Shown here: positions 660 to 18,379 of the stretch, one piece after another
Position numbering within the stretch: position 1 is the stretch's first letter
How the letters are laid out: every line of letters starts with the position of its first letter
DNA from: a virus
Lineage: Duplodnaviria; Heunggongvirae; Uroviricota; Caudoviricetes
Reading direction: 5' to 3' (one strand)
DNA: 39,994 nucleotides
Virus record (IMG/VR): IMGVR_UViG_3300023371_000094
Notes under the pieces: model-generated
What the model was told of the DNA's origin: nothing
Databases searched by the model: none
Seen by the model: only the letters and a program-made list of their open reading frames with translations
Translations under genes and position numbers: made by a program

Positions 660-1097
660 TCACTTCAATTTTTCGATTGCCATTCTTGCAAGCTCATCAC
701 ATCTGTTGTTGTATTGGTTATCAGAATGACCTTTAACTTTTATGAATTTAACTTGGTGAGGCTTCATAGCGGCAAGCAACTGAAGCCACAATTCTTTGTT
801 TTGTACGGGTTTTCTCCCCTTGGTTTTCCAGCCGGATGCTTGCCAGTTATCAATCCAGCCTTGAGCAAATGCATTTACTACATACGCAGAATCGCTGTAC
901 AGCGAAACTTTGCTCGGTGCTTTTAAGCACTTCAGTGCACTTATAACTGCCTGAAGCTCCATACGGTTGTTTGTCGTGTCTGCTACGCCACCACTGATTT
1001 CCTTTGAGTGTTGACCGTAGAAGAGAATTGCGCCCCAACCGCCAGCGCCGGGGTTTCCTGAACACGCCCCGTCCGTGTAAATAGTTACTTCATACAT
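660..1097 (-). CDS. rnhA: Ribonuclease HI
   Basis: IYTDGACSGNPGAGGWG, TTNNRMELQA, LYSDSAYV, NKELW, VKGHSDNQYNNRCDELA: all catalytic D/E/D/H/D motifs of RNase HI. Confidence 0.95.
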   Translation of the reverse strand: MYEVTIYTDGACSGNPGAGGWGAILFYGQHSKEISGGVADTTNNRMELQAVISALKCLKAPSKVSLYSDSAYVVNAFAQGWIDNWQASGWKTKGRKPVQNKELWLQLLAAMKPHQVKFIKVKGHSDNQYNNRCDELARMAIEKLK

Positions 1098-1111
1098 TTG
1101 TTTTCCTTTCC

Positions 1112-1415
1112 ATTACAATCCACGTATAAATTCAGCGGGCGGAATGATCATGACTGGGCAGAGACAGCTTCGGCGAACCGTAAGAAATCATTTGGATTTG
1201 TGCAAATGATTGTTGAAAAGTGTCTAAAACCCAACATAAATATTAGGTATTTCTGTGGTTTTGCTACCTAAAGCCCGAATCGGAGTCTGATGAGGTGCTC
1301 TCAGTGTCCAAGCTTCCTGCAGGAGGCGCCTGCTGCGTGCCTTCTTCAGTCTCACAATGTGGTACTTTGAGTGTAACCCAAAGCCCTATCTTTCGATAGA
1401 AATAACGATTGTAAT
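1112..1415 (-). ncRNA. Retron-type msr-msd ncRNA cassette R1 (304 nt)
   Basis: Perfect 9-bp terminal inverted repeat ATTACAATC (1407-1415) / GATTGTAAT (1112-1120). Unpaired G at 1406, 5-nt spacer, hairpin (T)CTATC-GAAA-GATAG(G), then 8-bp hairpin GCTTTGGG-TTACA-CTCAAAGT (1364-1384). TG precedes a1. Confidence 0.8.
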
Positions 1416-1419
1416 TGTT

Positions 1420-1613
1420 AAACTTAAATACAATAAAGGAGAATTTTCATCTGCTCGATCAAAATTCTCGTTGTAGTACGGTTCTGAATCACTGGCTTAA
1501 GAAACGCAGTTTCTTAAGGCTTTGACTTCAGAACGGTACTACGTAAGAACCCTCGCGGAACGTCTAATATAATCAGACGTTTGATATGTATATCAAAATT
1601 TCTATTTAAGTTT
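1420..1613 (-). ncRNA. Retron-type msr-msd ncRNA cassette R2 (194 nt) with long msd-like hairpin
   Basis: Starts 1 nt after the RT stop. Perfect 11-bp inverted repeat AAACTTAAATA (1603-1613) / TATTTAAGTTT (1420-1430). G at 1602, spacer AAATT, hairpin TTGATA-TACA-TATCAA, hairpin ACGTCTGA-TTATA-TTAGACGT (1560-1580). Hairpin of about 33 bp at 1473-1542 (29 Watson-Crick pairs, 3-nt loop). Confidence 0.85.
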
Positions 1614-1614
1614 T

Positions 1615-3009
1615 TTATCTATTGCTTATGATGTCCTTGATGATCTGCATCATATCAACACCGAAGCGCTGGTTATACGCCAGAATAATTGCATCGATGT
1701 TTTCCTTTTCTACATTTCTGTAGTATGCAATTTGTCCACCAAGAACCTGCACTTCCTCAACGTCCCACACACGATGATGCGTGTAATCGTTTAAGAAGGA
1801 ATACACCGCCGCCTTGAAAGCCTTTCGCTTTTCGTGACCGATGGTGATTTCGTTATCCTTGTTAAGCATCAGTCCAAGGTTCCAGTTGCGACCGGCGGAA
1901 GAACCATATCTGGTTTTCTCGGTGTTAAGAGAGAAGGGAACATTGAAACGACGGAGAATGTCAAGGATTTCATTCTGTACGGAACCTTCCTTATCGACTT
2001 CCCACGTGAACGACAGGTCGCTCGAAATGAGGATGTCGTCTGCATACCTTGTATAGCAGAGATGAGGGCTATGCTCACGGCACATCTTAGCGATGGCGTG
2101 ATCGATAGGGATCATCATAATATTCGTGATCGTAGGGCTAAACGGAGTACCCTGCGGAAGAACGCCGTTCAGGAAACAGAGAGATAATGCCTTCGACAGA
2201 GCCTCGCGACCTCTTTCGCTCTTAACAATCTCGCTGTAAGGGAAAATGCTGCTAAGCTGACGAAGAACAAATTCGTGAGTAGTGGAACCAAAGAAGTTTG
2301 AAAAATCAAGCTTGAGGAACCAGCGCGAATTGTTTCTCTGGTGACGTTTAAGAGCATCTATCGTAGATCTGCCCTTGACATAAGCAAATGCAGAGGTGTG
2401 ATAGCTTCCGAACAGTTTGTTTTCGAAGGTGATTTTGAGGTCGGTGAGAACGCTCTTAAACTCAGCACGGGGTGCGTCTATGCGGCGGAACCCTGCTTTG
2501 ATGAAGGATTTGATTTTCTCTTCATTTACCTCAAATCCGAGAGGAGTTAGGTACTGAACACACTTAGCAAGAGATTCCTGCTCGATTCTGTTGTGTTCTG
2601 CGCAAGGGTGATTGGTAAGCAATCCCTTCAAGATAGCAAACACATCTGCATAAACGTCTTTGCCGCTGTATGAAATGCCAGAGTTAGCGTTGTGAGTCTT
2701 GAAAATCTCACGCACTACAACCGAGAAACCCTTGTTCTTTTTCATAAGATAAAAGGTTTCGTAAAGGTTTTCTTTGGGTACATCGAAATACTCACGGTGG
2801 CGGTTGTTGAACTTTTCAAGCATACCAACCATAGCCCCGATGTTGATTTTTTCAAGCAGACGGGGCGGGGTGTGGTCACGATATACCGTTCTTGTATCAC
2901 AGGTATCATCCATCATCCTTGCAAAGAACGACTCATTGATACCGTTTAAGATGTCGTCGAAAGAAATCTGGTACTCTTTCTGACGCACCGGTATAGTTAT
3001 GTATGGCAT
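1615..3009 (-). CDS. Retron-type reverse transcriptase with about 170-aa N-terminal extension
   Basis: AFAYVKGRSTIDALKRH (region X, NAxxH-like), FLKLDFSNFFGS, GVLPQGTPFSPTITN, YTRYADDILIS, NLGLMLN (at the VTG position). No group II intron maturase or endonuclease domain recognised. Confidence 0.9.
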   Translation of the reverse strand: MPYITIPVRQKEYQISFDDILNGINESFFARMMDDTCDTRTVYRDHTPPRLLEKINIGAMVGMLEKFNNRHREYFDVPKENLYETFYLMKKNKGFSVVVREIFKTHNANSGISYSGKDVYADVFAILKGLLTNHPCAEHNRIEQESLAKCVQYLTPLGFEVNEEKIKSFIKAGFRRIDAPRAEFKSVLTDLKITFENKLFGSYHTSAFAYVKGRSTIDALKRHQRNNSRWFLKLDFSNFFGSTTHEFVLRQLSSIFPYSEIVKSERGREALSKALSLCFLNGVLPQGTPFSPTITNIMMIPIDHAIAKMCREHSPHLCYTRYADDILISSDLSFTWEVDKEGSVQNEILDILRRFNVPFSLNTEKTRYGSSAGRNWNLGLMLNKDNEITIGHEKRKAFKAAVYSFLNDYTHHRVWDVEEVQVLGGQIAYYRNVEKENIDAIILAYNQRFGVDMMQIIKDIISNR

Positions 3010-3018
3010 AATGTGGAT

Positions 3019-3326
3019 CTCCTATAAACATTTATTTATTGTCATCTCATGAAGACCGCGGAACCTGCGATGGTAATCCTGAAGATGGAGTTTGTCAAGA
3101 TGTTTTGAACAATTATTTATTAACAATGTGTTAATAAACTGGCTCATAAGGGGGTGTTCGGTGGTGGTTTCTCGTGTGCACGGGAGTTACCAGCAGTACC
3201 ACGCTCGCTTGAGCTGGTTGTATCCCGGATTGCATCCCTTCTGAGCGTCGTCGCTCGCTCTGACATCTTGGCACTTTGAATGTAATCCAAAGCCTTATCG
3301 TGAAGATAAGAATTTCTTTATCGGAG
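3019..3326 (-). ncRNA. Retron-type msr-msd ncRNA cassette R3 (308 nt), canonical position upstream of RT
   Basis: a2 CTCCGATAAA (3317-3326) pairs 9/10 with a1 TTTATAGGAG (3019-3028). G at 3316, spacer AAATT, hairpin CTTATC-TTCAC-GATAAG, hairpin GCTTTGGA-TTACA-TTCAAAGT (3273-3293). Long-range stem TGCCAAGATGT/ACATCTTGACA; 10-bp hairpin TTTATTAACA/TGTTAATAAA. Confidence 0.85.
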
Positions 3327-3332
3327 CGTTAC

Positions 3333-4007
3333 TTAAAACGCATCAATATCAAAATTGAATGCGTCTATCGTAACAATTTTCTTGAGTTCCTTCTTTCTGA
3401 TGAAGTTCATAAAGTTAGAAACTCCGTAAGAACAGATGATTCTTACTGTGGGTGCTACTCCCATTTCAACGTTGCACGCCGTTACAGGAGTCGAAGCTTT
3501 AGCTTCTTCGTGAGTGAAGTCCATACTGCGGATGAGATTGTCCACCATACGGGAATCTTTCCAGTCGGCGGCATAATGCTGAGCATCCTCAAGGCGAGTT
3601 CTGAAATCAAACATTGCTTTGATGGACTGATTGGGTTTGTTCTTGATAGCGATTTCACGTCTGAGGTCGATGTTGTCAACGCACAGGAAAACATAGCCAC
3701 TCAAGCGTGTGTTCTGTGTCCACCCTTCGGGGTAAACAGTGATGTCGTTCGCGGCTTCGGGGTTAATTGCACACAGCATATCCTTTACCGCATCAACCTT
3801 GAGTCGCTTGATGTCTGCATTGGTAAACATCTGGTTCGCCAGATTGTGAGCAGAAACGACGTCAAAGTCGTAGAGGGAAATCTTTGTGATACCGAGGCGA
3901 ACAAGAAGCTCTGCCACGGTAGAGCCGACGGAGCCACAGCCGATGATGTGACATCGGCTGGTTACGTCAATAGGATTGAAGTAGTCCTGTGATTTTACGA
4001 GATTCAT
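3333..4007 (-). CDS. ThiF/E1-like ubiquitin-activating enzyme
   Basis: IIGCGSVGS nucleotide-binding loop, DFDVVSAHNLANQ, KVDA, LCVDN, candidate catalytic Cys in TACNV. The ATG at 4007 overlaps the upstream stop (ATGA), so it is preferred to the track start at 4016. Confidence 0.9.
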   Translation of the reverse strand: MNLVKSQDYFNPIDVTSRCHIIGCGSVGSTVAELLVRLGITKISLYDFDVVSAHNLANQMFTNADIKRLKVDAVKDMLCAINPEAANDITVYPEGWTQNTRLSGYVFLCVDNIDLRREIAIKNKPNQSIKAMFDFRTRLEDAQHYAADWKDSRMVDNLIRSMDFTHEEAKASTPVTACNVEMGVAPTVRIICSYGVSNFMNFIRKKELKKIVTIDAFNFDIDAF

Positions 4008-5008
4008 ACTGAGCACCTCTCTCTGTAGAGTTTGTAGTAGTCGTCCTCATCATCGTCGTCATAGAGGGAAATTTGGCGTCCATAATCATCGTCGTCTTCG
4101 ACGTCGGGACGTTTGCTCTGCAAGGATGAGGTAGTCTTCGGGGTTGTTGCCGCTGCCGGAGCGCTTCCGTTGTATGTGCCGTGATAAGGATAGGTTGATA
4201 CGGGGGCAGTAACTCTACGCTCTACAACTACGCCTTCAGCTTCAGAGATAAGTTCCGAAAGGAAGAAGTCATCTTCTACCTCGACATCAGAGGAAATCGT
4301 GAAGCTAAGCTCACCCTTACTATTGATCGAAGTAAGGTTCTTTTGAGTGAGCCTGTCTACATATTCCTCAATGGCATCGTGGAATGCGTCCTTGATGCGT
4401 CTCTTGATGTCTTCAATCTCGATTACCGAGAATTCGATTTCATTGGTAGCATATAAAGCGTTATTCGACAAGTCGTAGATTTCGCCACTGATATCGCCTT
4501 TTTTGTTTGTGATGATGAAGATGTAGAAGTAATCATCTCCTGCACCCGGTGTAGCGAAGTTGCCCAAGATGTTCTTCCTGTATGTCATATCAACTCCTGA
4601 CGGGCTTACAGCCATATTTACGTGGCTATGACCGTGGAAACGACAGGCGTTGAAGGTTTCGTCATCGAGGGAGTCAAGCCATTCTTCGTAGCATCTCTGA
4701 TCGGATACTACCGTTGCGCTGGAAACCTCGTGAGGGAAAATGAGGATGTCCTTAATGAGGAATTCTGCCTCACCTTTGCGCTCAACAAGCCCGTGCCACT
4801 CGACTTCAGTGCCGTATTTGTGAACTAAAGCGTACATTTTCACCCACGCACTGGCTGCAAAAACAAGTTTTGCTTTGCGATTGTCTTTAGGAGCAGGGAG
4901 TGTAACCTTGACATCCTCGGAATGAAACTTCGTATTGCGGAGTTCCTGCGTTGCTTTCTCAAGAGCTGCGCGAATGTCCTCATCGGACAAATAAATTCTC
5001 TTAGCCAT
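4004..5008 (-). CDS. JAB/JAMM (MPN) metallo-isopeptidase
   Basis: EVEWHG (catalytic Glu) and FHGHSHVNMAVSPSGVD match the HxH-x7-S-x2-D JAMM motif. Acidic low-complexity C-terminus. Start set at ATG 5008 behind GAAGGAG. Confidence 0.85.
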   Translation of the reverse strand: MAKRIYLSDEDIRAALEKATQELRNTKFHSEDVKVTLPAPKDNRKAKLVFAASAWVKMYALVHKYGTEVEWHGLVERKGEAEFLIKDILIFPHEVSSATVVSDQRCYEEWLDSLDDETFNACRFHGHSHVNMAVSPSGVDMTYRKNILGNFATPGAGDDYFYIFIITNKKGDISGEIYDLSNNALYATNEIEFSVIEIEDIKRRIKDAFHDAIEEYVDRLTQKNLTSINSKGELSFTISSDVEVEDDFFLSELISEAEGVVVERRVTAPVSTYPYHGTYNGSAPAAATTPKTTSSLQSKRPDVEDDDDYGRQISLYDDDDEDDYYKLYRERCSV

Positions 5009-6398
5009 TGTTATCTCCTTCATTGTTCTCCGCCGTTCTGATGTAGTTAAGGAACTCTCTGGGAGTCATTTCGGTGCCGTTATCTGCGATAATGCAACGG
5101 CAAGACTCAAAGCGACCTGCGACATCTCTCAACATCTTGGATACTACGGTCGAGTCTCCAAAGTTGACGTTCTTGGCAGCCGCGATTGTCTGCTCGATTG
5201 CCAAATCCCAGTCGCCATCATTCATATATCTGGCGATTGCATCTCGGTTTCCACCGAGACAAGCGTGATGATAGATGTGAGGATGAGGAAGGTGTGTTTC
5301 ATCATAGCCACCACTTCTCATACCGGATTGGGCATTGATGCTTGAAAGATTGTTCAACGTAAACATTGCCTCAACTCTGAACTTTCCCTTATTGAGAGCG
5401 AATACAGCGTTAAACACCTCTCTGACTTCTGCACCACAAGTGCTCGTATTGAAGTAAGAATTGGGGTTATCTCTTACTCTTACGAAAGCATCCTCGTCAT
5501 AATACTCAATCGTTTCGGTGATTGTGTAATACAACGTCTTTCCGTTCGAGCTGTTCTGAACTCTGTAAACTCCCAACTGCTTGTGGGTTTTGAAGAAATT
5601 AAACAGAGCTTCGTTGGTATCTGCGGGTTGGTTAAGCATCGCGTTGAGATTAAAGAGCAGGGCATCAAGCTCCATATACAAAGTTGAGATAGCCTGTTCT
5701 TGTGCGGCAATATTGTTTCTCGCCTTGTCGCACTTGCTTTCGAGGGTACGAATCTGTGCTTCTCTGAAGTGATTGTTCCATCCGATGAGAGTTCTTGCCA
5801 TCATCATAGATTTGAAATCATACTTCTGAGCCAGCTCGTTCACCACCTTGGTGAACTTTGGGGAATCTTTATCGTGAGCCGCCTTGAAAAGTGCGAGCTC
5901 ACCTTCCGTGAGTCTGTAGTTTTCCGTATAGATCCACGGAAGAATTCTGAAAAGGGAAGAGCAGAACTCATCAATCCATCTTTCAGTAACACGCTTAACA
6001 AAAAGAATAACCTTTTGTGCATCCCTGTTAAGGAATACTGCTGTGGCAGATGCCTTGCTCAAGAAAGGCGCAACAGGATACGGAGGCGTATCTAATGCAA
6101 TCCAGCCCTCTTTGTCAATGTAAGGCAACTCTGCTCCGTTTCTCGATTCTACAATGAGAATATTGTGAGACGACTCCATCATCGAAGCCGCGAAATCATT
6201 GCCGCGAGCACCGGGGCTAAAGGTAGAGGACTGAACCTTAATCAGCTTTACCTTTTCGATGTTCTCGGGGCAATGAACCACGGCAACATAACGAAGCGTT
6301 GCTTCGAGGACGGTGCTACCGAAAGGGAATGAATGACTCTCCACTCCGAAGAATGCATTTGCGTCTGAATTGGTTAATAGAGTATCGATGTAATCCAT
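5001..6398 (-). CDS. Prokaryotic E2-like (UBC-fold) protein with central coiled coil
   Basis: C-terminal LPHPHIYHHACLGG resembles the E2 HPN-x-CL active site. Heptad-rich segment around aa 205-255. Located between Ubl and JAB. Confidence 0.6.
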   Translation of the reverse strand: MDYIDTLLTNSDANAFFGVESHSFPFGSTVLEATLRYVAVVHCPENIEKVKLIKVQSSTFSPGARGNDFAASMMESSHNILIVESRNGAELPYIDKEGWIALDTPPYPVAPFLSKASATAVFLNRDAQKVILFVKRVTERWIDEFCSSLFRILPWIYTENYRLTEGELALFKAAHDKDSPKFTKVVNELAQKYDFKSMMMARTLIGWNNHFREAQIRTLESKCDKARNNIAAQEQAISTLYMELDALLFNLNAMLNQPADTNEALFNFFKTHKQLGVYRVQNSSNGKTLYYTITETIEYYDEDAFVRVRDNPNSYFNTSTCGAEVREVFNAVFALNKGKFRVEAMFTLNNLSSINAQSGMRSGGYDETHLPHPHIYHHACLGGNRDAIARYMNDGDWDLAIEQTIAAAKNVNFGDSTVVSKMLRDVAGRFESCRCIIADNGTEMTPREFLNYIRTAENNEGDNNG

Positions 6399-7241: not shown

Positions 7242-7249
7242 AAAAAATC

Positions 7250-7312
7250 GAGAGGCGTTTTAATCGTAAAAATTTGTTGGCTACGAAGAAAAAGGTTTGC
7301 TGTTCGCCTCTC
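7250..7312 (-). ncRNA. Stem-closed ACAGCAA RNA module (a), just 3' of DUF2828
   Basis: GAGAGGCG-a-ACAGCAA...CGCCTCTC, 8-bp closing stem. Confidence 0.55.
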
Positions 7313-7328
7313 TGTTGAAGTATGTATA

Positions 7329-8846
7329 TTATTTCAACGCATCTTCAACAGGCTGATATCTGGGTGTGTTGAGTGTCTCAAGCAGGCACTCGAACGGATC
7401 TGTCTTGCCACTCATAACCATCTTACAGATGTTTACGGAGAAACCGCTTACAAGGGCAACTCCCATATTGTTCTCACGAACGGGGATGGTATTCGTTCTG
7501 GAGTTTACGTTCCAGAATACGAGGCGAGGGAGCTTATATCCATATCCTCTGTACTTGGCTTCGATGGTTTTGAAGAGATTTGCACCAATGCGACCGGTAG
7601 TTGCACAGTCAAACTCCATATCGGAGATGATAAGGATGTTCGCAGGAATATCCTCTTGGCGCATATTGTTACGAATCGCAGTGTTCAAAATGAGGTCGAA
7701 TACCGCCTCGATATTGGTGTTAGAAATCTCGCTGTGCCCAAGAGCAATAGAAATCTTGTCGCGCAAACTCTGCCCACGACTGAAATCAACGAGCTGAGGA
7801 CGGGAGGAGAAGGTGATGTACTTGTTCTTGAACTCGCCAGAAGAACGCTCTGCAAAGTAGATTGCCAAAGAATTTGCAACTTCAAGAGCAGTCACTCCCG
7901 AGCTACCTACTCTCGACATCATCGAGCCAGAGCCGTCGGCAACAACGATCGTATTACCGCATCCCTGAACAAGGTCGGGGAGGTTCTTCCAAAGAGCTTC
8001 GATTGTTGCGTCATAACTCTTTGGGGTTCTACCATAACCGCCACTGCAGTACTGGTGTACGATGTCGTAAGGGAAGAGTGTAGAAGCATTGATGCGTGCT
8101 TCACCCTTTTCAAGGCTTGCAAGGAATGCTCTTCTTCGTTCCTCGTCGTTTCTGAGGAATGCGCCGTTGTAAATAAGATTTGCACGAGAGGGAACTGCTT
8201 CGTAATCGATTTCGCCCCACATCTTAGCAGACATCTTAACCTCGACGACGTCCGTATATCTACGGAGTGCGCTGAGTGTTCTACGGTATTCGCTTTCCTT
8301 CATCTCAAGAGCATTGCGTAAGATCTTTGCATATCTCTTAGTAGTAGCGGAGGAAGCATTTGCGGATGGCATCCATTTACCGAGAAGGGAAATAGGCTTT
8401 CTGTTGCGACTGTTCGCAACATCTTCGGTGAGTTGCTGACTTACAAACTCAACAATATAGGGACGAAGCTCGTTGTCGTCGAGGAGCGACCAAAGGTCAT
8501 CATATCTTCCGTATTCCGGAATAAGTCCGACAACCTTACGAGCCGTCTCGGGCTCATACTTGGCTATGTATTTCATTGCGGTTCTGAAGAGCCTACGCTC
8601 GCCAAGACCGCCGCGCACATCTCTGGCGAAGAAGAGCCACTTCATAGCCAGAACTTTGTTTTCGAGAAATGCTGCCTGAAAACGACGGACGATTTCACCT
8701 TCGTTTGCGGAACGGAGAGATGCGACCGCAAAGTTGATGTCAAGCAGAGCTTTGCCTGTCGTGCGGTATCCTACCGCGCCGTTCTCGGTGACGGACTCGT
8801 TGAAATTTTCGAGCATTTCATTCTTCATTGCATCCATAAAACTCAT
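7329..8846 (-). CDS. DUF2828 family protein (helical N-terminus plus VWA; possibly a distant TROVE/Ro60 relative)
   Basis: TENGA, LFFARDVRGGLGER, KWMPS, VVADGSGSM (MIDAS), IISDMEFD, VFWNV. Confidence 0.85.
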   Translation of the reverse strand: MSFMDAMKNEMLENFNESVTENGAVGYRTTGKALLDINFAVASLRSANEGEIVRRFQAAFLENKVLAMKWLFFARDVRGGLGERRLFRTAMKYIAKYEPETARKVVGLIPEYGRYDDLWSLLDDNELRPYIVEFVSQQLTEDVANSRNRKPISLLGKWMPSANASSATTKRYAKILRNALEMKESEYRRTLSALRRYTDVVEVKMSAKMWGEIDYEAVPSRANLIYNGAFLRNDEERRRAFLASLEKGEARINASTLFPYDIVHQYCSGGYGRTPKSYDATIEALWKNLPDLVQGCGNTIVVADGSGSMMSRVGSSGVTALEVANSLAIYFAERSSGEFKNKYITFSSRPQLVDFSRGQSLRDKISIALGHSEISNTNIEAVFDLILNTAIRNNMRQEDIPANILIISDMEFDCATTGRIGANLFKTIEAKYRGYGYKLPRLVFWNVNSRTNTIPVRENNMGVALVSGFSVNICKMVMSGKTDPFECLLETLNTPRYQPVEDALK

Positions 8847-8893
8847 TGTTTTAACCCTCTTTCTTTTTTATTTTTGTTTGAATGGATGTCCCC

Positions 8894-8952
8894 AAGACGC
8901 AGAAGTATTCAGATTAACCGTCTGAGCTTTTGAAATTTGCTGTAAGCGTCTT
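8894..8952 (-). ncRNA. ACAGCAA module (b) in the DUF2828 5' leader
   Basis: AAGACGC-tt-ACAGCAA...TCAGA-CGGTTAA-TCTGA...GCGTCTT. Confidence 0.55.
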
Positions 8953-8968
8953 AGAGGGTTGTAAGAGC

Positions 8969-9031
8969 AAGGCACATTGCAAGATAAAAATTCCCTAAAT
9001 TTTCCTTTGTTAATATTGCTGTGAGTGCCTT
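8969..9031 (-). ncRNA. ACAGCAA module (c)
   Basis: AAGGCAC-tc-ACAGCAA...AAAAT-TTAGGGA-ATTTT...GTGCCTT. Confidence 0.55.
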
Positions 9032-9033
9032 AA

Positions 9034-9163
9034 TGGTTGGGAAGGTTGGATTCGAACCAACGTAACATAATGTGGCGGATTTTCAGTCCGTACATTGCAG
9101 TTGTGGTCTTAACCAAGACCAACATAATGGTTCCGCTGTCTTTAGCCACTTGACTACTTCCCA
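9034..9163 (-). tRNA. tRNA-like gene, GAA (Phe) anticodon, long variable arm, 45-nt insertion in the anticodon stem
   Basis: Acceptor TGGGAAG/CTTCCCA-A-CCA, T arm GTTGG-TTCGAAT-CCAAC. Anticodon arm GCGGA-CTGAAAA-TCCGC is restored by removing 9090-9134. Confidence 0.65.
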
Positions 9164-9169
9164 ATAAAG

Positions 9170-9254
9170 TGGTGGGCGAGGCAGGACTCGAACCTGCGAA
9201 GCCGAACGGCAACGGGTTTACAGCCCGCCGGAATTGCCGCTATCCGACTCGCCC
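9170..9254 (-). tRNA. tRNA-Tyr(GTA)
   Basis: GGGCGAG/CTCGCCC-A-CCA, GCGGG-CTGTAAA-CCCGT, long variable arm, GCAGG-TTCGAGT-CCTGC. Confidence 0.92.
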
Positions 9255-9263
9255 AAAGCGATG

Positions 9264-9381
9264 CGAGAGTGGCAGGACTCGAACCTGCGACCACGGAGTT
9301 AACAGCTCAAAATAACCTTGCAGTATAAGGCTTTTACAAACCTCGTTAATTACGTGCTCTATCCAACTGAGCTACACTCTC
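9264..9381 (-). tRNA. tRNA-Asn(GTT) with 44-nt insertion between nt 28 and 29
   Basis: GAGAGTG/CACTCTC-G73, GCTC-AGTTGGATA-GAGC, CG[9309-9352]GAG-CTGTTAA-CTCCG, canonical T arm. No encoded CCA. Confidence 0.7.
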
Positions 9382-9388
9382 GATACGG

Positions 9389-9504
9389 TAGGGGTGATAG
9401 GATTTGAACCTATGACCACGAGCGAATGCAGTGCTAAAGAAAATTGCAGTAGCAGTCGATAACTCGACTAACAATACGTGCTCTAACCGCTGAGCTACAC
9501 CCCT
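9389..9504 (-). tRNA. tRNA-like gene with 41-nt insertion at 28/29 and a 9-nt anticodon loop (GCA central)
   Basis: AGGGGTG/CACCCCT-A, GCTC-AGCGGTTA-GAGC, CG[9436-9476]AGC-ACTGCATTC-GCTCG, ATAGG-TTCAAAT-CCTAT. Confidence 0.6.
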
Positions 9505-9512
9505 ATAAAGGT

Positions 9513-9606
9513 GACGGGGAATAAGAGATTACTTTCGTGGGAGGGTTGAAAAATTATAAGCTTTTCAAATTTCTTTATATGTAGATTGCTGTAAGCGATC
9601 CCCGTC
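9513..9606 (-). ncRNA. ACAGCAA module (d)
   Basis: GACGGGGA...ACAGCAA...TTGAAAAG-CTTATAA-TTTTTCAA...TCCCCGTC. Confidence 0.55.
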
Positions 9607-9647
9607 CGTGTCGCTTGGAAAGAACGGAAGTAATCTCGGGAAAATAC

Positions 9648-9783
9648 AAGGCACAAGTTGAAGATAAGGGCGCCAATGGAAACGGCGCTGGTTGCGCGGC
9701 GGCAATTGCGGAGATTGCCGTAAAGGGGCGCAAGATTGTAAGAATATGTTGTTTATTTCATAAGAAATTGCTGTATGTGCCTT
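9648..9783 (-). ncRNA. ACAGCAA module (e)
   Basis: AAGGCACA-t-ACAGCAA...GCGCCG-TTTCCAT-TGGCGC...TGTGCCTT. Confidence 0.55.
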
Positions 9784-10141
9784 AAACATTAGGGAAGCGC
9801 GTCATTCTGGTTGTTTTCCAAGGTAAGATGCAACCTAACTTTGCCTTGGTCATCCTCTCGTCTTTCCGAGTCGTCATTGACGGGCTTCAAGGAGCGTTCC
9901 CAGAAGGGAGATGGGAAAGGGGGAACGCATTTCGGGGAAGCGTAACCCGTAAACATTCAACGAGCGAATTACGCCCGGGGCGAGTATCGCCCAGTATCGC
10001 TTCAAATCACTCTTAACGGCTGTTCATCTAACTCCATTTACCACTGCTGCTTCGGCTCCCCAAAGTATTACGGGGGTGCTTTCTTCAACTACATACTCCG
10101 CATTTAATTGAGGCTTCGTGGCACCGTATTAAGAAATTGGT

Positions 10142-10417
10142 TTAGAGCTTTTTACCACGGATACTTTTGTTCCAAACCATCCCATTGTCAACCTCAGCGA
10201 AGTCGAACTTTTCATTCAGTTGCTCTATGAGCGACCAAATGGTATAATCCACGGGCTGGGGCTTCTCTTTGTTTTTAGAAAAGTGTTTGGAGGCAAATAT
10301 CTCGAAGGCAATATACCTCAAAATTTCACCTTCGCTATGTTGCAAGAGGCAATTCGTGGCTTCTTTTCTTGTTGCGTAAGGAACAGAGCAAAGAGGGCAA
10401 TGATAATGCTCATTCAT
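10142..10417 (-). CDS. Small hypothetical protein, N-terminal Zn-finger-like motif
   Basis: CPLC...C...H near the N-terminus; RBS AAGGAGA. Confidence 0.65.
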   Translation of the reverse strand: MNEHYHCPLCSVPYATRKEATNCLLQHSEGEILRYIAFEIFASKHFSKNKEKPQPVDYTIWSLIEQLNEKFDFAEVDNGMVWNKSIRGKKL

Positions 10418-10443
10418 AGCTTTCTCCTTATCAAATAATTGTT

Positions 10444-10472
10444 TTATGAGGTTTCTAAATATGGTTTATAAT
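10444..10472 (+). promoter_or_regulatory. Weak sigmaA-type promoter pointing antisense into R4
   Basis: TTATGA-17 bp (contains CTAAATATGG)-TATAAT. Confidence 0.4.
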
Positions 10473-10477
10473 GTCCG

Positions 10478-10783
10478 TACCACAATCCATGTATAAAACC
10501 TGAAGTGAGCTCATCCGACGAAGAGTCCCGAGGATGTCGAAATAAGGTTAATTATTTCGAGTTCAACAGGAAAATTAAGTTGAAAAGATGTGGATAATTA
10601 CCAATTTATAGGTATTTAGTGGAGGATAAGTCGCCGACTTTGGCTGGGAGATGGCGCATTGCGACGTTTAACGGGCGATGCAGCCATCCGGATCGTAGAT
10701 CCGATGAGTAATCCTTCTCACATCTTGTCACTTTGAGTGTAACCCAAAGCCCTTCCCAAAGGGAAGACATTTCGATTGTAGTA
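10478..10783 (-). ncRNA. Remote retron-type msr-msd ncRNA cassette R4 (306 nt)
   Basis: a2 TACTACAATC (10774-10783) / a1 GATTGTGGTA (10478-10487), 10 bp with one G-U. G at 10773, spacer AAATG, hairpin TCTTCCC-TTT-GGGAAGG, hairpin GCTTTGGG-TTACA-CTCAAAGT (10730-10750) identical to R1. Confidence 0.82.
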
Positions 10784-17053: not shown

Positions 17054-18379
17054 ATGGTTGTAAAAGTCTGTGATGCGCTCTGTGGAGCCGGTAAAACACA
17101 GTCTTGCATCAATATGATGAACAATGACTCAGAGAGAAAATACATCTTCATAACGCCTTATCTTGATGAGGTAGAGAGGATTAAGACCTCTTGCGCCGCG
17201 CGGAAGTTCGTTTCCCCGGAACGGAGGTTCACCAACGGATACTCTAAGCTCAAAGATGTTCCTTCTCTTTTACGCGCTGGTGAGAACATCGCCAGTACAC
17301 ACGCTTTATTCTCTTGTTATAATGAAGAGATTAAAACGCTCATCCGAGAGCAACACTACACGCTTGTGCTCGATGAGGTAATCGATTTATTCCAGCCCGT
17401 CAATCTCGACGGCGGAGATGTGAATTTTCTTGTACGGAACAACATCGCTAAGAAGCAGGATGACAATGTCATCTGGGATGACGATGAGTACACGGGAGTT
17501 CTGTTCAGCGAGATTATGCAGATATCCAAGTCGCGCAACCTCGTTGACTACGACGGCTCCTTCTACTTCTGGTCGTTGCCGATAGATGTATTCAACTGTT
17601 TCGATGATGTTTACGTGCTTACCTATTTATTTGAATATCAGATGCTGAAATACTTCTTTGATGTAAACAATGTAGAGTATCAGCTCATAGGCACTAAGCG
17701 CCAGAACGGTATCTTTCAGTTCTGCCCGCTTGAAGAGATGGATCGCCGCGTAGACCTACGGGATAAGATCCATATAAATTATAATGATAGACATAACGAA
17801 ATCGGCAACAAGAGCTTTTCGTTATCAGCAGGGTGGTTCGACAGGGTGTACCGCGAGGTAGGTCAACCGAATATCACCATTTTAAAAAATAACTTATACA
17901 ACATATTTAGACACACGAAGAGTGGAAACGACGATAAGATGTGGACGACTTTGAACAGATATCGCAGTGCTCTTAAAGGAAAGGGATACTCCAACGGATT
18001 TATTACCTTTAATAAAAGAGCCAGCAACAACTTCGCGGATCGCCATTACTTGGCGTATTGCTTAAACGTATTTATGCAACCGTGGATGAAGAACTATCTG
18101 ACGAAGCTCGGCGTCGAGGATGTGAATCAAGATATGTACGCGCTTTCGGTTCTCGTGCAGTGGATATTCCGTTCCGCAGTACGTAAGGGCGAGGAAGTCT
18201 GGATTTACATTCCCAGCAAACGAATGAGATATTTATTGCAGGAATGGATAGATAATCTCGCCGAAGGCAGAGATCTGGAGCCTTTGCGTTTCAACGCAAG
18301 AAAAGTACCGACGCACCGCGAGTGCGCTTATGCTCTCCATCGGTCAAAGAGAAAGAACGAAGGAGGTAAAAAGTCTTGA
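17054..18379 (+). CDS. SF2 helicase-like (DEAD/DEAH-like) protein
   Basis: DALCGAGKT (Walker A), FITPY, STHALF, LVLDEVID (Walker B), LVQWIFRSAVR. Confidence 0.75.
   Translation: MVVKVCDALCGAGKTQSCINMMNNDSERKYIFITPYLDEVERIKTSCAARKFVSPERRFTNGYSKLKDVPSLLRAGENIASTHALFSCYNEEIKTLIREQHYTLVLDEVIDLFQPVNLDGGDVNFLVRNNIAKKQDDNVIWDDDEYTGVLFSEIMQISKSRNLVDYDGSFYFWSLPIDVFNCFDDVYVLTYLFEYQMLKYFFDVNNVEYQLIGTKRQNGIFQFCPLEEMDRRVDLRDKIHINYNDRHNEIGNKSFSLSAGWFDRVYREVGQPNITILKNNLYNIFRHTKSGNDDKMWTTLNRYRSALKGKGYSNGFITFNKRASNNFADRHYLAYCLNVFMQPWMKNYLTKLGVEDVNQDMYALSVLVQWIFRSAVRKGEEVWIYIPSKRMRYLLQEWIDNLAEGRDLEPLRFNARKVPTHRECAYALHRSKRKNEGGKKS

What the first reader, a model, noticed from the sequence alone, without database searches (positions are those of the whole stretch)
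9034..9504. Three tRNA genes interrupted at the same position (28/29) by short ACUGCAA-bearing inserts
Removing 9090-9134 (45 nt), 9309-9352 (44 nt) and 9436-9476 (41 nt) restores normal anticodon stems. The first insert has ambiguous borders because of a CGGA repeat, but is compatible with 28/29. The inserts differ in sequence but share one plan: a linker, a 6-bp hairpin with 4-nt loop (GGTCTT/AAGACC, AGGTTT/AAGCCT, AGTCGA/TCGACT), 3 nt, ACTGCAA, then 5-9 nt. Established: bacterial and phage tRNA introns are self-splicing group I/II elements of hundreds of nt; short protein-spliced introns are archaeal/eukaryal and use BHB motifs or position 37/38. Bacterial Y RNAs (YrlA) join a tRNA-like body to a Ro60-binding stem at the anticodon-arm position. 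Inference: either a new class of protein-spliced mini-intron, or Y-RNA-like tRNA mimics that dock on the neighbouring DUF2828 protein.
Basis: partly seen in the sequence, partly recalled or inferred. Interest (0 to 1): 0.88.

Follow-up and report, generated by a model that had tools for sequence, protein, structure and literature searches.

The report
tRNA-shaped partner RNAs of phage Ro60-like protein
The three "interrupted tRNA genes" are real, but they are most likely not intron-bearing tRNAs: they look like tRNA-shaped non-coding RNAs whose insert is a conserved docking module for the Ro60-like RNA-binding protein encoded next door, a pairing repeated in hundreds of phages.

Summary
Observation confirmed. 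On the minus strand, three tRNA-shaped genes (9504-9389, 9381-9264, 9163-9037) carry 41-45 nt in the 5' strand of the anticodon stem. Each insert is a 6-7 bp hairpin, 2-3 nt, ACUGCAA and a U-rich tail.

The module is not confined to tRNAs. Five stand-alone ACAGCAA copies flank the neighbouring DUF2828/DUF7788 gene, whose model matches Ro60 over its full length (Z 12-15).

In 72 related phage loci the motif occurs 5.7 times per 2.3 kb upstream of that gene, against 0.12 on the antisense strand. Of 116 unique module-bearing tRNA-like genes, about 78 have no anticodon hairpin. Near-identical orthologues differ in "anticodon".

The same helix-NN-ACAGCAA module sits beside DUF2828 genes in cultured Listeria, Staphylococcus, Bacillus, Enterococcus, E. 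coli, Campylobacter, Fusobacterium and Mycobacterium phages. In mycobacteriophage Tyson it closes a YrlA-type tRNA-like Y RNA.

Best reading (0.7): Y-RNA-like tRNA mimics in which the Ro-binding stem is capped and grafted into the anticodon arm, a permuted YrlA design with a new recognition motif. Splicing is not excluded (about 0.1). Protein binding is inferred, not shown.

This scan met the same module before on other DNA (e1-5382010).

The parts
9389..9504 (-). tRNA-like RNA A (116 nt). Positions 27-28 (CG) are followed by a 41-nt module (9476-9436). The anticodon region is degenerate: a 9-nt loop ACUGCAUUC at 9435-9421.
   Evidence: Rfam tRNA 49.8 bits with 56 nt skipped; ARAGORN calls Cys-GCA only after deletion, with an A.C mismatch and U37
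9453..9470 (-). Module hairpin of A: 7 bp including U.G, loop GUUA. It ends 2 nt before ACUGCAA (9450-9444).
   Evidence: RNAfold of the 30 nt upstream gives -8.3 kcal/mol, z -2.7
9264..9381 (-). tRNA-like RNA B (118 nt) with a 44-nt module (9352-9309). A 3-bp mini anticodon hairpin GAG-CUGUUAA-CUC lies at 9308-9296 (GUU).
   Evidence: Rfam tRNA 46 bits; ARAGORN calls Asn-GTT after deletion; structure with compensatory changes in 24 relatives
9327..9344 (-). Module hairpin of B: 7 bp, loop GUAA. It ends 2 nt before ACUGCAA (9324-9318).
   Evidence: alignment columns 45-50/67-72 covary
9170..9254 (-). Ordinary tRNA-Tyr(GUA) with encoded CCA, sitting between B and C.
   Evidence: ARAGORN, Rfam 54.4 bits
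9037..9163 (-). tRNA-like RNA C (127 nt) with a class II, Tyr-like body: 3-bp D stem and a long variable arm. It carries the module plus a second copy of CGGA. The loop CUGAAAA lies at 9086-9080.
   Evidence: Rfam tRNA 41.5 bits with 52 nt in place of the loop; orthologues L028 (CAGAAAA, no U33) and L068 (GUA)
9104..9121 (-). Module hairpin of C: 6-7 bp, loop GGUU, followed by ACUGCAA (9101-9095).
9648..9783 (-). Stand-alone module S1. A closing helix AAGGCAC/GUGCCUU encloses about 120 nt, with ACAGCAA (9774-9768) 2 nt after the 5' strand.
   Evidence: perfect 7-mer complement 120 nt downstream
9586..9616 (-). Stand-alone module S2: a local hairpin AAGCGA/UCGCUU directly followed by ACAGCAA (9592-9586).
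   Evidence: sequence; motif
8969..9031 (-). Stand-alone module S3: closing helix AAGGCAC/GUGCCUU, with ACAGCAA at 9022-9016.
8894..8952 (-). Stand-alone module S4: closing helix AAGACGC/GCGUCUU, with ACAGCAA at 8943-8937. It lies about 50 nt before the start codon of the protein gene.
7329..8846 (-). Gene for a 505-aa DUF2828 + DUF7788 (vWA) protein: a Ro60-like fold with an intact MIDAS motif DxSxS (D304, S306, S308).
   Evidence: Pfam; PHROG 850 'RNA-binding protein'; Foldseek top 13 hits all Ro60, E 8e-8 to 1e-5; VIA-align Z 12-15.1 over 316-408 residues; invariant columns
7249..7313 (-). Stand-alone module S5, just after the stop codon. Closing helix GAGAGGC/GCCUCUC, ACAGCAA at 7303-7297, then a U run.

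Best explanation
The three genes encode tRNA-shaped non-coding RNAs of the Y-RNA kind, not split tRNA genes.

Each keeps a tRNA acceptor stem, D arm and T arm. It is therefore presumably cut out of the A-B-Tyr-C precursor by the ordinary tRNA end-processing enzymes. Its anticodon arm carries a grafted module: a short helix with a conserved G:C at the third pair, 2 nt, AC(A/U)GCAA, then a U-rich stretch.

This module is the recognition element of the Ro60-like (DUF2828/DUF7788) protein encoded 190 nt downstream. The same module also occurs five more times around that gene as stand-alone stem-loops.

In topology the tRNA-borne form is a circular permutation of YrlA. In YrlA the Ro-binding stem holds the RNA ends and the acceptor stem is capped. 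Here the acceptor stem holds the ends and the Ro-binding helix is capped.

The tRNA body, and in B also a real-looking anticodon hairpin, would then be the part the particle shows to tRNA-recognising host or phage enzymes.

Shown here: the anatomy, covariation, linkage to the gene and the protein fold.
Inferred: transcription and processing, protein binding, and the biological role.
For: 1. The neighbouring protein has a Ro60 fold over its full length. Its family is annotated 'Ro-like RNA binding protein' in mycobacteriophage records.

2. Protein to motif. In 72 IMG/VR loci with a homologue, sense-strand ACWGCAA reaches 86-107 copies per 250-nt bin just upstream, against 0-8 elsewhere and on the antisense strand. 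71 of 72 loci carry the motif, and 67 of 72 have at least one tRNA-borne copy.

3. Motif to protein. A pure RNA pattern search fetched 79 new loci. 34 hold the gene in the DNA held, always on the same strand, and 3 of 4 near-complete genomes among the rest hold it elsewhere.

4. 183 of 253 over-long tRNA-like genes carry the motif, against 1 of 225 normal-length tRNAs.

5. Only about 38 of 116 unique module-bearing genes keep an anticodon hairpin. In the others the module replaces the loop.

6. Orthologues with near-identical bodies differ in 'anticodon': GUU/UCU, UGU/UGA, and GAA/GUA/loop without U33.

7. The helix is under selection. A perfect partner is found in 86 of 118 cases against 14 expected, pairs 1 and 3 are G:C, and the others covary. 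The hairpin ends 0-2 nt before the motif in 112 of 118. On 24 class I RNAs, 96% of cells are paired and 19 of 27 pairs show compensatory changes. RNAalifold finds the same fold.

8. Stand-alone copies are closed by a 7-bp helix in 116 of 184 cases, against 16 for shuffled arms.

9. The same module lies beside DUF2828 genes in cultured phages of the Listeria, Staphylococcus, Bacillus, Enterococcus, E. coli, Campylobacter, Fusobacterium and Mycobacterium groups. In phage Tyson it closes a YrlA-type tRNA-like RNA.

10. A normal tRNA-Asn(GTT) already exists in the window.
Against: - No binding experiment exists, and RNA-protein docking could not be computed here.
- Deleting the insert restores 5-bp anticodon stems in all three genes, and canonical 7-nt loops with U33 and A37 in B and C. 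The 3-bp mini anticodon stem covaries in relatives, so an anticodon-loop shape is selected in this subclass.
- The genome fragment holds an Rnl2-type RNA ligase, and no normal tRNA-Phe or tRNA-Cys.
- The protein shows no sequence-level match to TROVE or to Ro60 chains.
- The motif differs from the published Y RNA motif GNCGAAN0-1G (PMC4201824).
Confidence: 0.7

Rival explanations
1. The inserts are a new class of short, protein-dependent introns at position 28/29. An unknown nuclease recognises hairpin + ACUGCAA, cuts at both borders, and a phage ligase (Rnl2 type) joins the exons. The products would be working tRNA-Asn, tRNA-Phe and tRNA-Cys.
For: - In silico removal gives ARAGORN-recognised tRNAs.
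- The position is constant in A, B and in class I relatives.
- The mini anticodon stem covaries, and the loops are mostly YU-NNN-AA.
- An RNA ligase gene is present.
- No normal Phe or Cys tRNA is present in the fragment.
Against: - The same module occurs in about 78 of 116 tRNA-like genes where removal yields no tRNA, and in 184 unique stand-alone stem-loops.
- Product A would have U37 and a mismatch. Orthologues of C lose U33, or carry a Tyr body with GAA.
- Anticodons change between near-identical orthologues.
- tRNA-Asn(GTT) is already present.
- There is no BHB geometry (by inspection), no EndA, RtcB or ribozyme match.
- No contig joins across an insert (weak evidence).
Confidence: 0.1
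2. The module is an RNA signal for something other than the Ro60-like protein. Examples would be a host or phage RNase, a stability or processing signal, or a cis-regulatory leader. In this reading its linkage to DUF2828 reflects a shared pathway rather than direct binding.
For: - Copies lie in the 5' leader (S3, S4) and right after the stop codon (S5) of the protein gene.
- Binding has not been shown.
- The motif differs from the known Ro60 site.
Against: - The linkage holds whether the modules lie upstream (CKA15, Thrax1, F374, Fnu1) or downstream (Tyson, S-CoN_Ph1, Felixounavirus) of the gene. That argues against a purely cis-regulatory role.
- In Tyson the module occupies the place of the Ro-binding stem of a YrlA-type RNA.
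Confidence: 0.12
3. The inserts are copies of a miniature mobile DNA element that targets the anticodon-stem region of tRNA genes and leaves disabled pseudo-tRNAs.
For: - The same kind of insert sits in different tRNA bodies at the same place.
- C is flanked by a 4-nt direct repeat (CGGA) that could pass for a target-site duplication.
Against: - The three copies share only the motif and the fold, not the sequence.
- The helices covary, and pairs 1 and 3 are conserved.
- There is no duplication in A or B.
- The inserts are strictly on one strand and clustered beside one gene family.
- The tRNA bodies stay intact, with 96% of cells paired.
Confidence: 0.04

Closest known systems
YrlA-type bacterial and phage Y RNAs bound by Ro60/Rsr (Rfam RF02553; Chen et al. 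2014, PMC4201824)
   Same: - A non-coding RNA encoded next to a Ro60-type gene on the same strand.
- It contains a tRNA-like domain with genuine T and D arms.
- The protein-binding helix emerges at the anticodon-stem position.
- Several RNAs occur per locus.
   Different: - The RNA ends lie in a normal acceptor stem, and the presumed binding helix is capped. This is a circular permutation of YrlA.
- The conserved motif is helix-NN-AC(A/U)GCAA instead of GNCGAAN0-1G.
- Some members keep a complete anticodon hairpin.
- The protein belongs to DUF2828/DUF7788, not Pfam TROVE.
- The Rfam YrlA model does not reach its threshold. Its 31-bit hit at 9327-9441 merely spans the T arm of A and the D arm of B.
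Thermus phage phiLo Ro60 with Yrl1/Yrl2 (PMC12135203; PDB 9KOP, 9L5Y)
   Same: - A phage-encoded Ro60-fold protein, and the best structural match of the model (Z 15.1).
- Y-like RNAs are encoded directly upstream.
- Each is a stem flanking an internal loop with a short conserved motif.
   Different: - The phiLo RNAs are plain stem-bulge-stem RNAs with a CGAA motif.
- There is no tRNA-borne form.
- Binding was shown by experiment there, not here.
Non-canonical archaeal tRNA introns (BHB-dependent; review PMC4090602)
   Same: A short insert in a tRNA gene outside position 37/38, whose removal restores a cloverleaf.
   Different: - No bulge-helix-bulge can be drawn at the borders.
- No splicing endonuclease gene is present.
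- The host is a phage of bacteria.
- The same module exists outside tRNA genes.
Putative Y RNAs of Listeria phage CKA15 (PMC12282133)
   Same: - CKA15_055 is a 36%-identical homologue of the window's protein. The authors suspected Rsr-like function and Y RNA partners.
- Three ACAGCAA stem-loops lie in the 330 nt upstream of it.
   Different: - The authors pointed to the hyper-abundant CKA15_059-061 transcripts, which Rfam scores as ROOL RNA, not to these modules.
- No tRNA-borne copies occur there.

Membership tests
YrlA / Y RNA-like (RF02553) | Reaches the Rfam gathering score (69 bits) | tested here: not met
   The only hit is 31.3 bits at 9327-9441. It spans two neighbouring genes.
YrlA / Y RNA-like (RF02553) | Encoded within a few kb of a Ro60-type gene, on the same strand | tested here: met
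   The RNAs lie 190-660 nt upstream of the DUF2828 gene on the minus strand. The Ro60 fold is shown, and family-wide linkage.
YrlA / Y RNA-like (RF02553) | tRNA-like domain with T arm and D arm | tested here: met
   Rfam tRNA model 41.5-49.8 bits; D, T and acceptor helices 97-100% paired in relatives.
YrlA / Y RNA-like (RF02553) | Order 5' stem, T arm, capped acceptor-like hairpin, D arm, 3' stem (RNA ends in the Ro-binding stem) | tested here: not met
   The window RNAs have the normal tRNA order with an open acceptor stem. The YrlA order with the same motif is seen in phage Tyson.
YrlA / Y RNA-like (RF02553) | Conserved GNCGAAN0-1G motif in the Ro-binding stem (PMC4201824) | tested here: not met
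   The motif here is AC(A/U)GCAA, preceded by a helix with G:C at pairs 1 and 3.
YrlA / Y RNA-like (RF02553) | Bound by the Ro60 orthologue | not testable with these tools
   No RNA-protein prediction or experiment was available.
Ro60 / TROVE protein (for the neighbouring gene) | Pfam TROVE (PF05731) sequence match | tested here: not met
   Pfam gives DUF2828, DUF7788 and a weak VWA_2 only. There is no TROVE match in the record at E <= 1, and no PDB sequence match.
Ro60 / TROVE protein (for the neighbouring gene) | Helical-repeat ring followed by a vWA domain, as in solved Ro60 structures | tested here: met
   The top 13 Foldseek hits and the top 10 VIA-align hits are all Ro60 chains, Z 12.0-15.1 with 316-408 residues aligned. 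vWA-only hits score Z <= 11.3. Model pLDDT is 76.
Ro60 / TROVE protein (for the neighbouring gene) | MIDAS motif DxSxS in the vWA domain | tested here: met
   D304, S306 and S308 are invariant in 25 homologues.
BHB-type (archaeal/eukaryal) tRNA intron | Bulge-helix-bulge at the two borders | tested here: not met
   By inspection, the exon bases flanking the borders (for example GCACG and GAGCU in B) cannot pair. RNAalifold finds no pairing between linker and tail.
BHB-type (archaeal/eukaryal) tRNA intron | Splicing endonuclease (PF01974) available | tested here: not met
   No match in the 76-kb record. The record is only about 52% complete, and the host is unknown.
BHB-type (archaeal/eukaryal) tRNA intron | Spliced RNA observed | tested here: inconclusive
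   Only assembled contigs at low depth were available. No contig joins across an insert.
Self-splicing group I / II intron or small ribozyme | Match to a catalytic RNA family | tested here: not met
   No such Rfam match at E <= 1 in 8900-9800. At 41-45 nt the inserts are far too short.

The most novel reading that the evidence does not exclude
The particle is a phage counter-defence device. The Ro60-like protein (found in virions of Listeria phage CKA15, PMC12282133) holds tRNA-shaped RNAs by the ACWGCAA handle. It would display exchangeable anticodon loops as baits or decoys for host anticodon nucleases, or as a platform that brings cleaved tRNAs to the phage RNA ligase.

This would explain three observations:
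- The loop shape (U33, U36-A37-A38) and the 3-bp stem are conserved, while positions 34-35 switch between near-identical orthologues (GUU, UUU, UGU, UCU, GCU, GUA).
- The loci sit in tRNA clusters.
- RtcB or Rnl2 genes are often nearby.
Probability: 0.2. Interest if true: 0.85.

Novelty: new variant of a known kind. Interest (0 to 1): 0.68.

Why it matters
DUF2828 'Ro-like' proteins occur in at least 710 deposited phage genomes, including Felixounavirus, P100/A511-like Listeria phages, KVP40 and many mycobacteriophages. In the literature I could search, no partner RNA has been defined for them.

A simple, searchable signature now predicts those partners: a 7-bp helix, 2 nt, then ACAGCAA. That makes the biology of phage Ro60 particles testable in cultured systems.

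The tRNA-borne form shows that a Y RNA can be built on an unpermuted tRNA, in some members with a complete anticodon hairpin. It links Ro60 particles more directly to tRNA biology.

It also warns annotators that over-long phage 'tRNAs with introns' may be something else.

Tried and rejected
- **RNA-seq.** The run search and read laying gave only Logan contigs at low depth. No contig joins across an insert. The 'joints' 9292/9294 to 9355 in X1 replace the skipped part with 16-18 other letters. They are therefore ordinary tRNAs of other organisms matching the exons at 90%, not spliced forms. X1 is probably DNA. Nothing can be said about expression or splicing.
- **Enzyme and domain searches in the 76-kb record.** No RtcB, T4 Rnl1 (its control also failed), EndA or TROVE. 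A tblastn search with CKA15 RtcB against all loci found nothing.
- **Sequence-level links of the protein to Ro60.** None by phmmer or hmmsearch against PDB or by NCBIfam.
- **Rfam.** No family covers the modules in the window or in four cultured phages. The 31-bit YrlA hit in the window is an artefact of an adjacent T arm and D arm.
- **Conserved protein neighbours of DUF2828.** None beyond the closest relatives, so the gene plus its RNAs is the conserved unit.
- **Pairing between the 5' linker and the 3' tail of the insert.** Not supported.
- **My first perfect-stem hairpin count.** It did not discriminate from a coding control. I replaced it with shuffled-arm and fold z-score tests.
- **Similarity search of 8000-10500 against deposited phages.** Only tRNA-Tyr matches.
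- **Literature.** Searches for DUF2828, Ro-like and phage Y RNA, ACAGCAA, and tRNA-like decoys found no description of this module.
Full report
**Setting.** The window is the reverse strand of part of a 76-kb IMG/VR phage record, estimated about 52% complete. On the minus strand lie four tRNA-shaped genes, 6-9 nt apart:
- A, 9504-9389
- B, 9381-9264
- an ordinary tRNA-Tyr(GUA), 9254-9170
- C, 9163-9037

A 505-aa gene follows 190 nt further on (8846-7329).

Rfam's tRNA model scores A, B and C at 49.8, 46.0 and 41.5 bits, while skipping 52-57 nt in the anticodon arm. ARAGORN sees none of them as they stand.

Each insert has a 6-7 bp hairpin with a 4-nt loop, a short spacer, ACUGCAA and a U-rich tail. 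Two caveats apply.
- 'A' does not regain a normal loop. It has either a 9-nt loop, or U37 plus an A.C mismatch.
- In 'C' the CGGA repeat lets the 3' strand pair either with the first copy, enclosing the whole module as Rfam prefers, or with the second copy, giving a local anticodon-like hairpin.

**The motif is not confined to the tRNA-like genes.** ACWGCAA occurs eight times on the minus strand between 7297 and 9774. The five extra copies are stand-alone. In four of them the 7 nt that end 2 nt before the motif (consensus AAGRCRC) pair perfectly with a segment 43-120 nt downstream (GYGYCUU). So the motif lies just inside a closing helix. One copy sits right after the stop codon of the protein gene. 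A further copy closes a stretch of about 240 nt in the genome's second tRNA array, outside the window.

**The neighbouring protein is Ro60-like.**
- Pfam gives DUF2828 plus DUF7788 (vWA).
- PHROG 850 is named 'RNA-binding protein'.
- An AlphaFold model built on 25 homologues (pLDDT 76) has solved Ro60 structures as its 13 best Foldseek matches. These include phage phiLo, Xenopus, human and Deinococcus Rsr, with E 8e-8 to 1e-5.
- VIA-align gives Z 12.0-15.1 over 316-408 residues spanning both domains, above the vWA-only matches at Z <= 11.3.
- The MIDAS residues are invariant.
- There is no sequence-level match to TROVE or to Ro60 chains. This is therefore a divergent clade, known in mycobacteriophage annotation as 'Ro-like RNA binding protein' and present in 710 deposited phage records.

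**Linkage, from protein to motif.** I examined 80 IMG/VR loci holding homologues at 58-75% identity.
- The sense-strand motif count per 250-nt bin rises to 86 and 107 in the 500 nt upstream of the gene, against 0-8 elsewhere and on the antisense strand.
- 71 of 72 full loci have the motif upstream: mean 5.7 per 2.3 kb, against 0.12 antisense.
- 67 of 72 loci have at least one tRNA-borne copy.

A simple scanner found 253 tRNA-like genes of 98 nt or more. 183 of them carry the motif, against 1 of 225 normal-length tRNAs.

**Linkage, from motif to protein.** The pattern AAGRCRCNNACAGCAAWTT has about 16 chance matches expected in the whole collection by my estimate. 34 hold a DUF2828 homologue in the DNA held, all on the motif's strand and many 90-1300 nt downstream. 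Of four near-complete genomes among the remainder, three hold the gene elsewhere.

**The module is a selected RNA structure.** Results from 118 unique tRNA-borne copies:
- The 30 nt upstream fold with mean z -2.4, and the hairpin ends 0-2 nt before the motif in 112.
- A perfect 5-bp partner exists in 86, against 14 expected for shuffled arms.
- Pairs 1 and 3 next to the motif are G:C. Pairs 2 and 4-6 take many compensating forms.

On a MAFFT alignment of 24 class I RNAs that was not fitted to any structure:
- 96% of cells pair, and 19 of 27 pairs show double changes.
- The module hairpin shows double changes in 5 of 6 pairs, and the 3-bp mini anticodon stem in 3 of 3.
- Slid controls drop to 31-52% paired.
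- RNAalifold finds the same fold on its own.

**Why this is not an intron.**
1. About 38 of 116 unique module-bearing tRNA-like genes pass my test for an anticodon hairpin, and roughly 33 of these look like real anticodon arms. In the rest a 5-bp stem encloses the module in place of the loop. The closest relative, L001, has such a gene.
2. Where a loop exists, its triplet changes between near-identical orthologues: GUU versus UCU (L036/L043), and UGU versus UGA. The orthologues of C read GAA, GUA and a loop without U33, all on a Tyr-type body. Positions 33 and 36-38 mostly stay U and UAA.
3. The window already has a normal tRNA-Asn(GTT).
4. There is no BHB geometry, no EndA or RtcB, and no ribozyme match.
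5. The module exists by the hundred outside any tRNA body.

None of this proves that splicing never occurs. An Rnl2-type ligase is present, and the laid sequencing contigs cannot show either splicing or its absence. I put splicing at about 0.1.

**The bridge to known Y RNAs.** The same module lies beside the DUF2828 gene in every cultured phage I opened:

| Phage | Copies | Position relative to the gene |
|---|---|---|
| Listeria CKA15 | 3 | upstream, behind a sigma-A-like promoter |
| Bacillus Thrax1 | 4 | upstream |
| Staphylococcus S-CoN_Ph1 | 3 | downstream |
| Enterococcus EF1 | 1 | upstream |
| Fusobacterium Fnu1 | 1 | upstream |
| Campylobacter F374 | 2 | upstream |
| E. coli Felixounavirus JLBYU28 | 4 | downstream, between tRNAs |
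| Mycobacteriophage Tyson | 3 | downstream |

In Tyson the middle copy is decisive for topology. GGACUC, 3 nt and CAGCAA open an RNA, and GAGUCC closes it. That RNA contains a T arm, a capped acceptor-like hairpin and a D arm in YrlA order. Rfam YrlA scores it at 36 bits, E 1.6e-6 in the 401-nt search. So the module occupies the place of the Ro-binding stem of a YrlA-type Y RNA.

In the window's RNAs the same helix is capped by a loop and the RNA ends sit in the acceptor stem, which is a circular permutation. The published Y RNA motif is GNCGAAN0-1G (PMC4201824), or 'CGAA' for phage phiLo (PMC12135203). AC(A/U)GCAA is a different signature that goes with the divergent protein clade.

**Mechanism, with shown and inferred steps marked.**
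- Shown: anatomy, covariation, strand-specific linkage and protein fold.
- Inferred: the cluster is transcribed together. The tRNA shape lets RNase P, RNase Z and the CCA enzyme release the RNAs, as shown for YrlA in PMC4201824. The Ro60-like protein binds helix + NN + ACWGCAA. The tRNA body, with an anticodon-shaped loop in B and C, is what the particle presents to tRNA-recognising factors.
- Published context: the Listeria phage homologue is found in purified virions (PMC12282133), and an RtcB gene lies 1.3 kb downstream of it. Bacterial rsr-yrlA loci are joined to rtcBA and respond to damaged tRNA (PMC7790460). A role against tRNA-cleaving host defences is therefore plausible but untested.

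**Earlier notes of this scan.**
- One note (e1-5382010) read hairpin + CAGCAA in two tRNA-like genes of another phage as a handle for a Ro60-like protein. I tested that claim independently here and it holds.
- Another note (e1-4039926) read a similar insert as a mini-intron. My evidence disfavours that reading for this family.

**Verdict.** This is a real and widespread feature. It is best filed as a new variant of Y RNA: a new motif, a new protein clade, and a new unpermuted tRNA-borne topology. It is not a new intron class.

Noticed in passing
L111:1470-2021 (Listeria phage CKA15, OR088597.1): The region annotated as CKA15_059-061 was reported as by far the most abundant phage transcript and left unexplained in PMC12282133. 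It scores as ROOL RNA (RF03087, 90 bits, E 3.6e-17, just under the gathering score of 99).
   Followed up: partly
G002:C1:15965-16423 + 17228-18340 (contig of L020); G011:C1:49594-50025 + 50889-52043 (contig of L159): In two unrelated phage contigs the DUF2828 gene is split into an N-terminal and a C-terminal piece, about 800-860 nt apart on the same strand. This could be an intron or a mobile insert in the Ro60-like gene.
   Followed up: no
window 9037-9163 (-); L028:~5500-5760; L068; L051: In the Tyr-type subclass the 5' strand of the anticodon stem is present twice, before and after the module, and both copies change together with the 3' strand: CGGA/CGGA/UCCG, UGGA/UGGA/UCCA, AUAGA/AUAGA/UCUAU. 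This suggests two mutually exclusive helices, that is a possible conformational switch. Phage Tyson's YrlA-type RNA has a similar repeat (GACUC ... ACUC).
   Followed up: partly
window 9421-9435 (-): The degenerate 'anticodon loop' of RNA A (ACUGCAUUC) repeats the first six bases of the ACUGCAA motif. RNA A therefore carries it twice, 15 nt apart.
   Followed up: no
G000:C1:64160 (outside the window; second tRNA array at 62190-64711): A further ACAGCAA module lies between tRNA-Gln and tRNA-Lys. Its helix AAGACACAC/GUGUGUCUU closes a stretch of about 240 nt.
   Followed up: partly
window 1350-1387, 3259-3296, 10716-10753: A 38-nt repeat occurs three times (79-87% identical) in intergenic gaps. 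It contains a CUUUG/CAAAG hairpin and may be a phage promoter, terminator or operator.
   Followed up: no
window 660-4016 (-): Downstream of the locus lie a ThiF/E1-like gene (3333-4016), a reverse transcriptase gene (1615-3009) and an RNase H gene (660-1097). The first two are shared with the closest relative only (L001/L028).
   Followed up: no
L235:2787-3236 (Campylobacter phage F374): tRNA-Met, tRNA-Asn(GTT) and tRNA-Tyr(GTA) lie directly upstream of its DUF2828 gene. This is the same Asn/Tyr company as in the window, followed by two ACAGCAA stem-loops.
   Followed up: no
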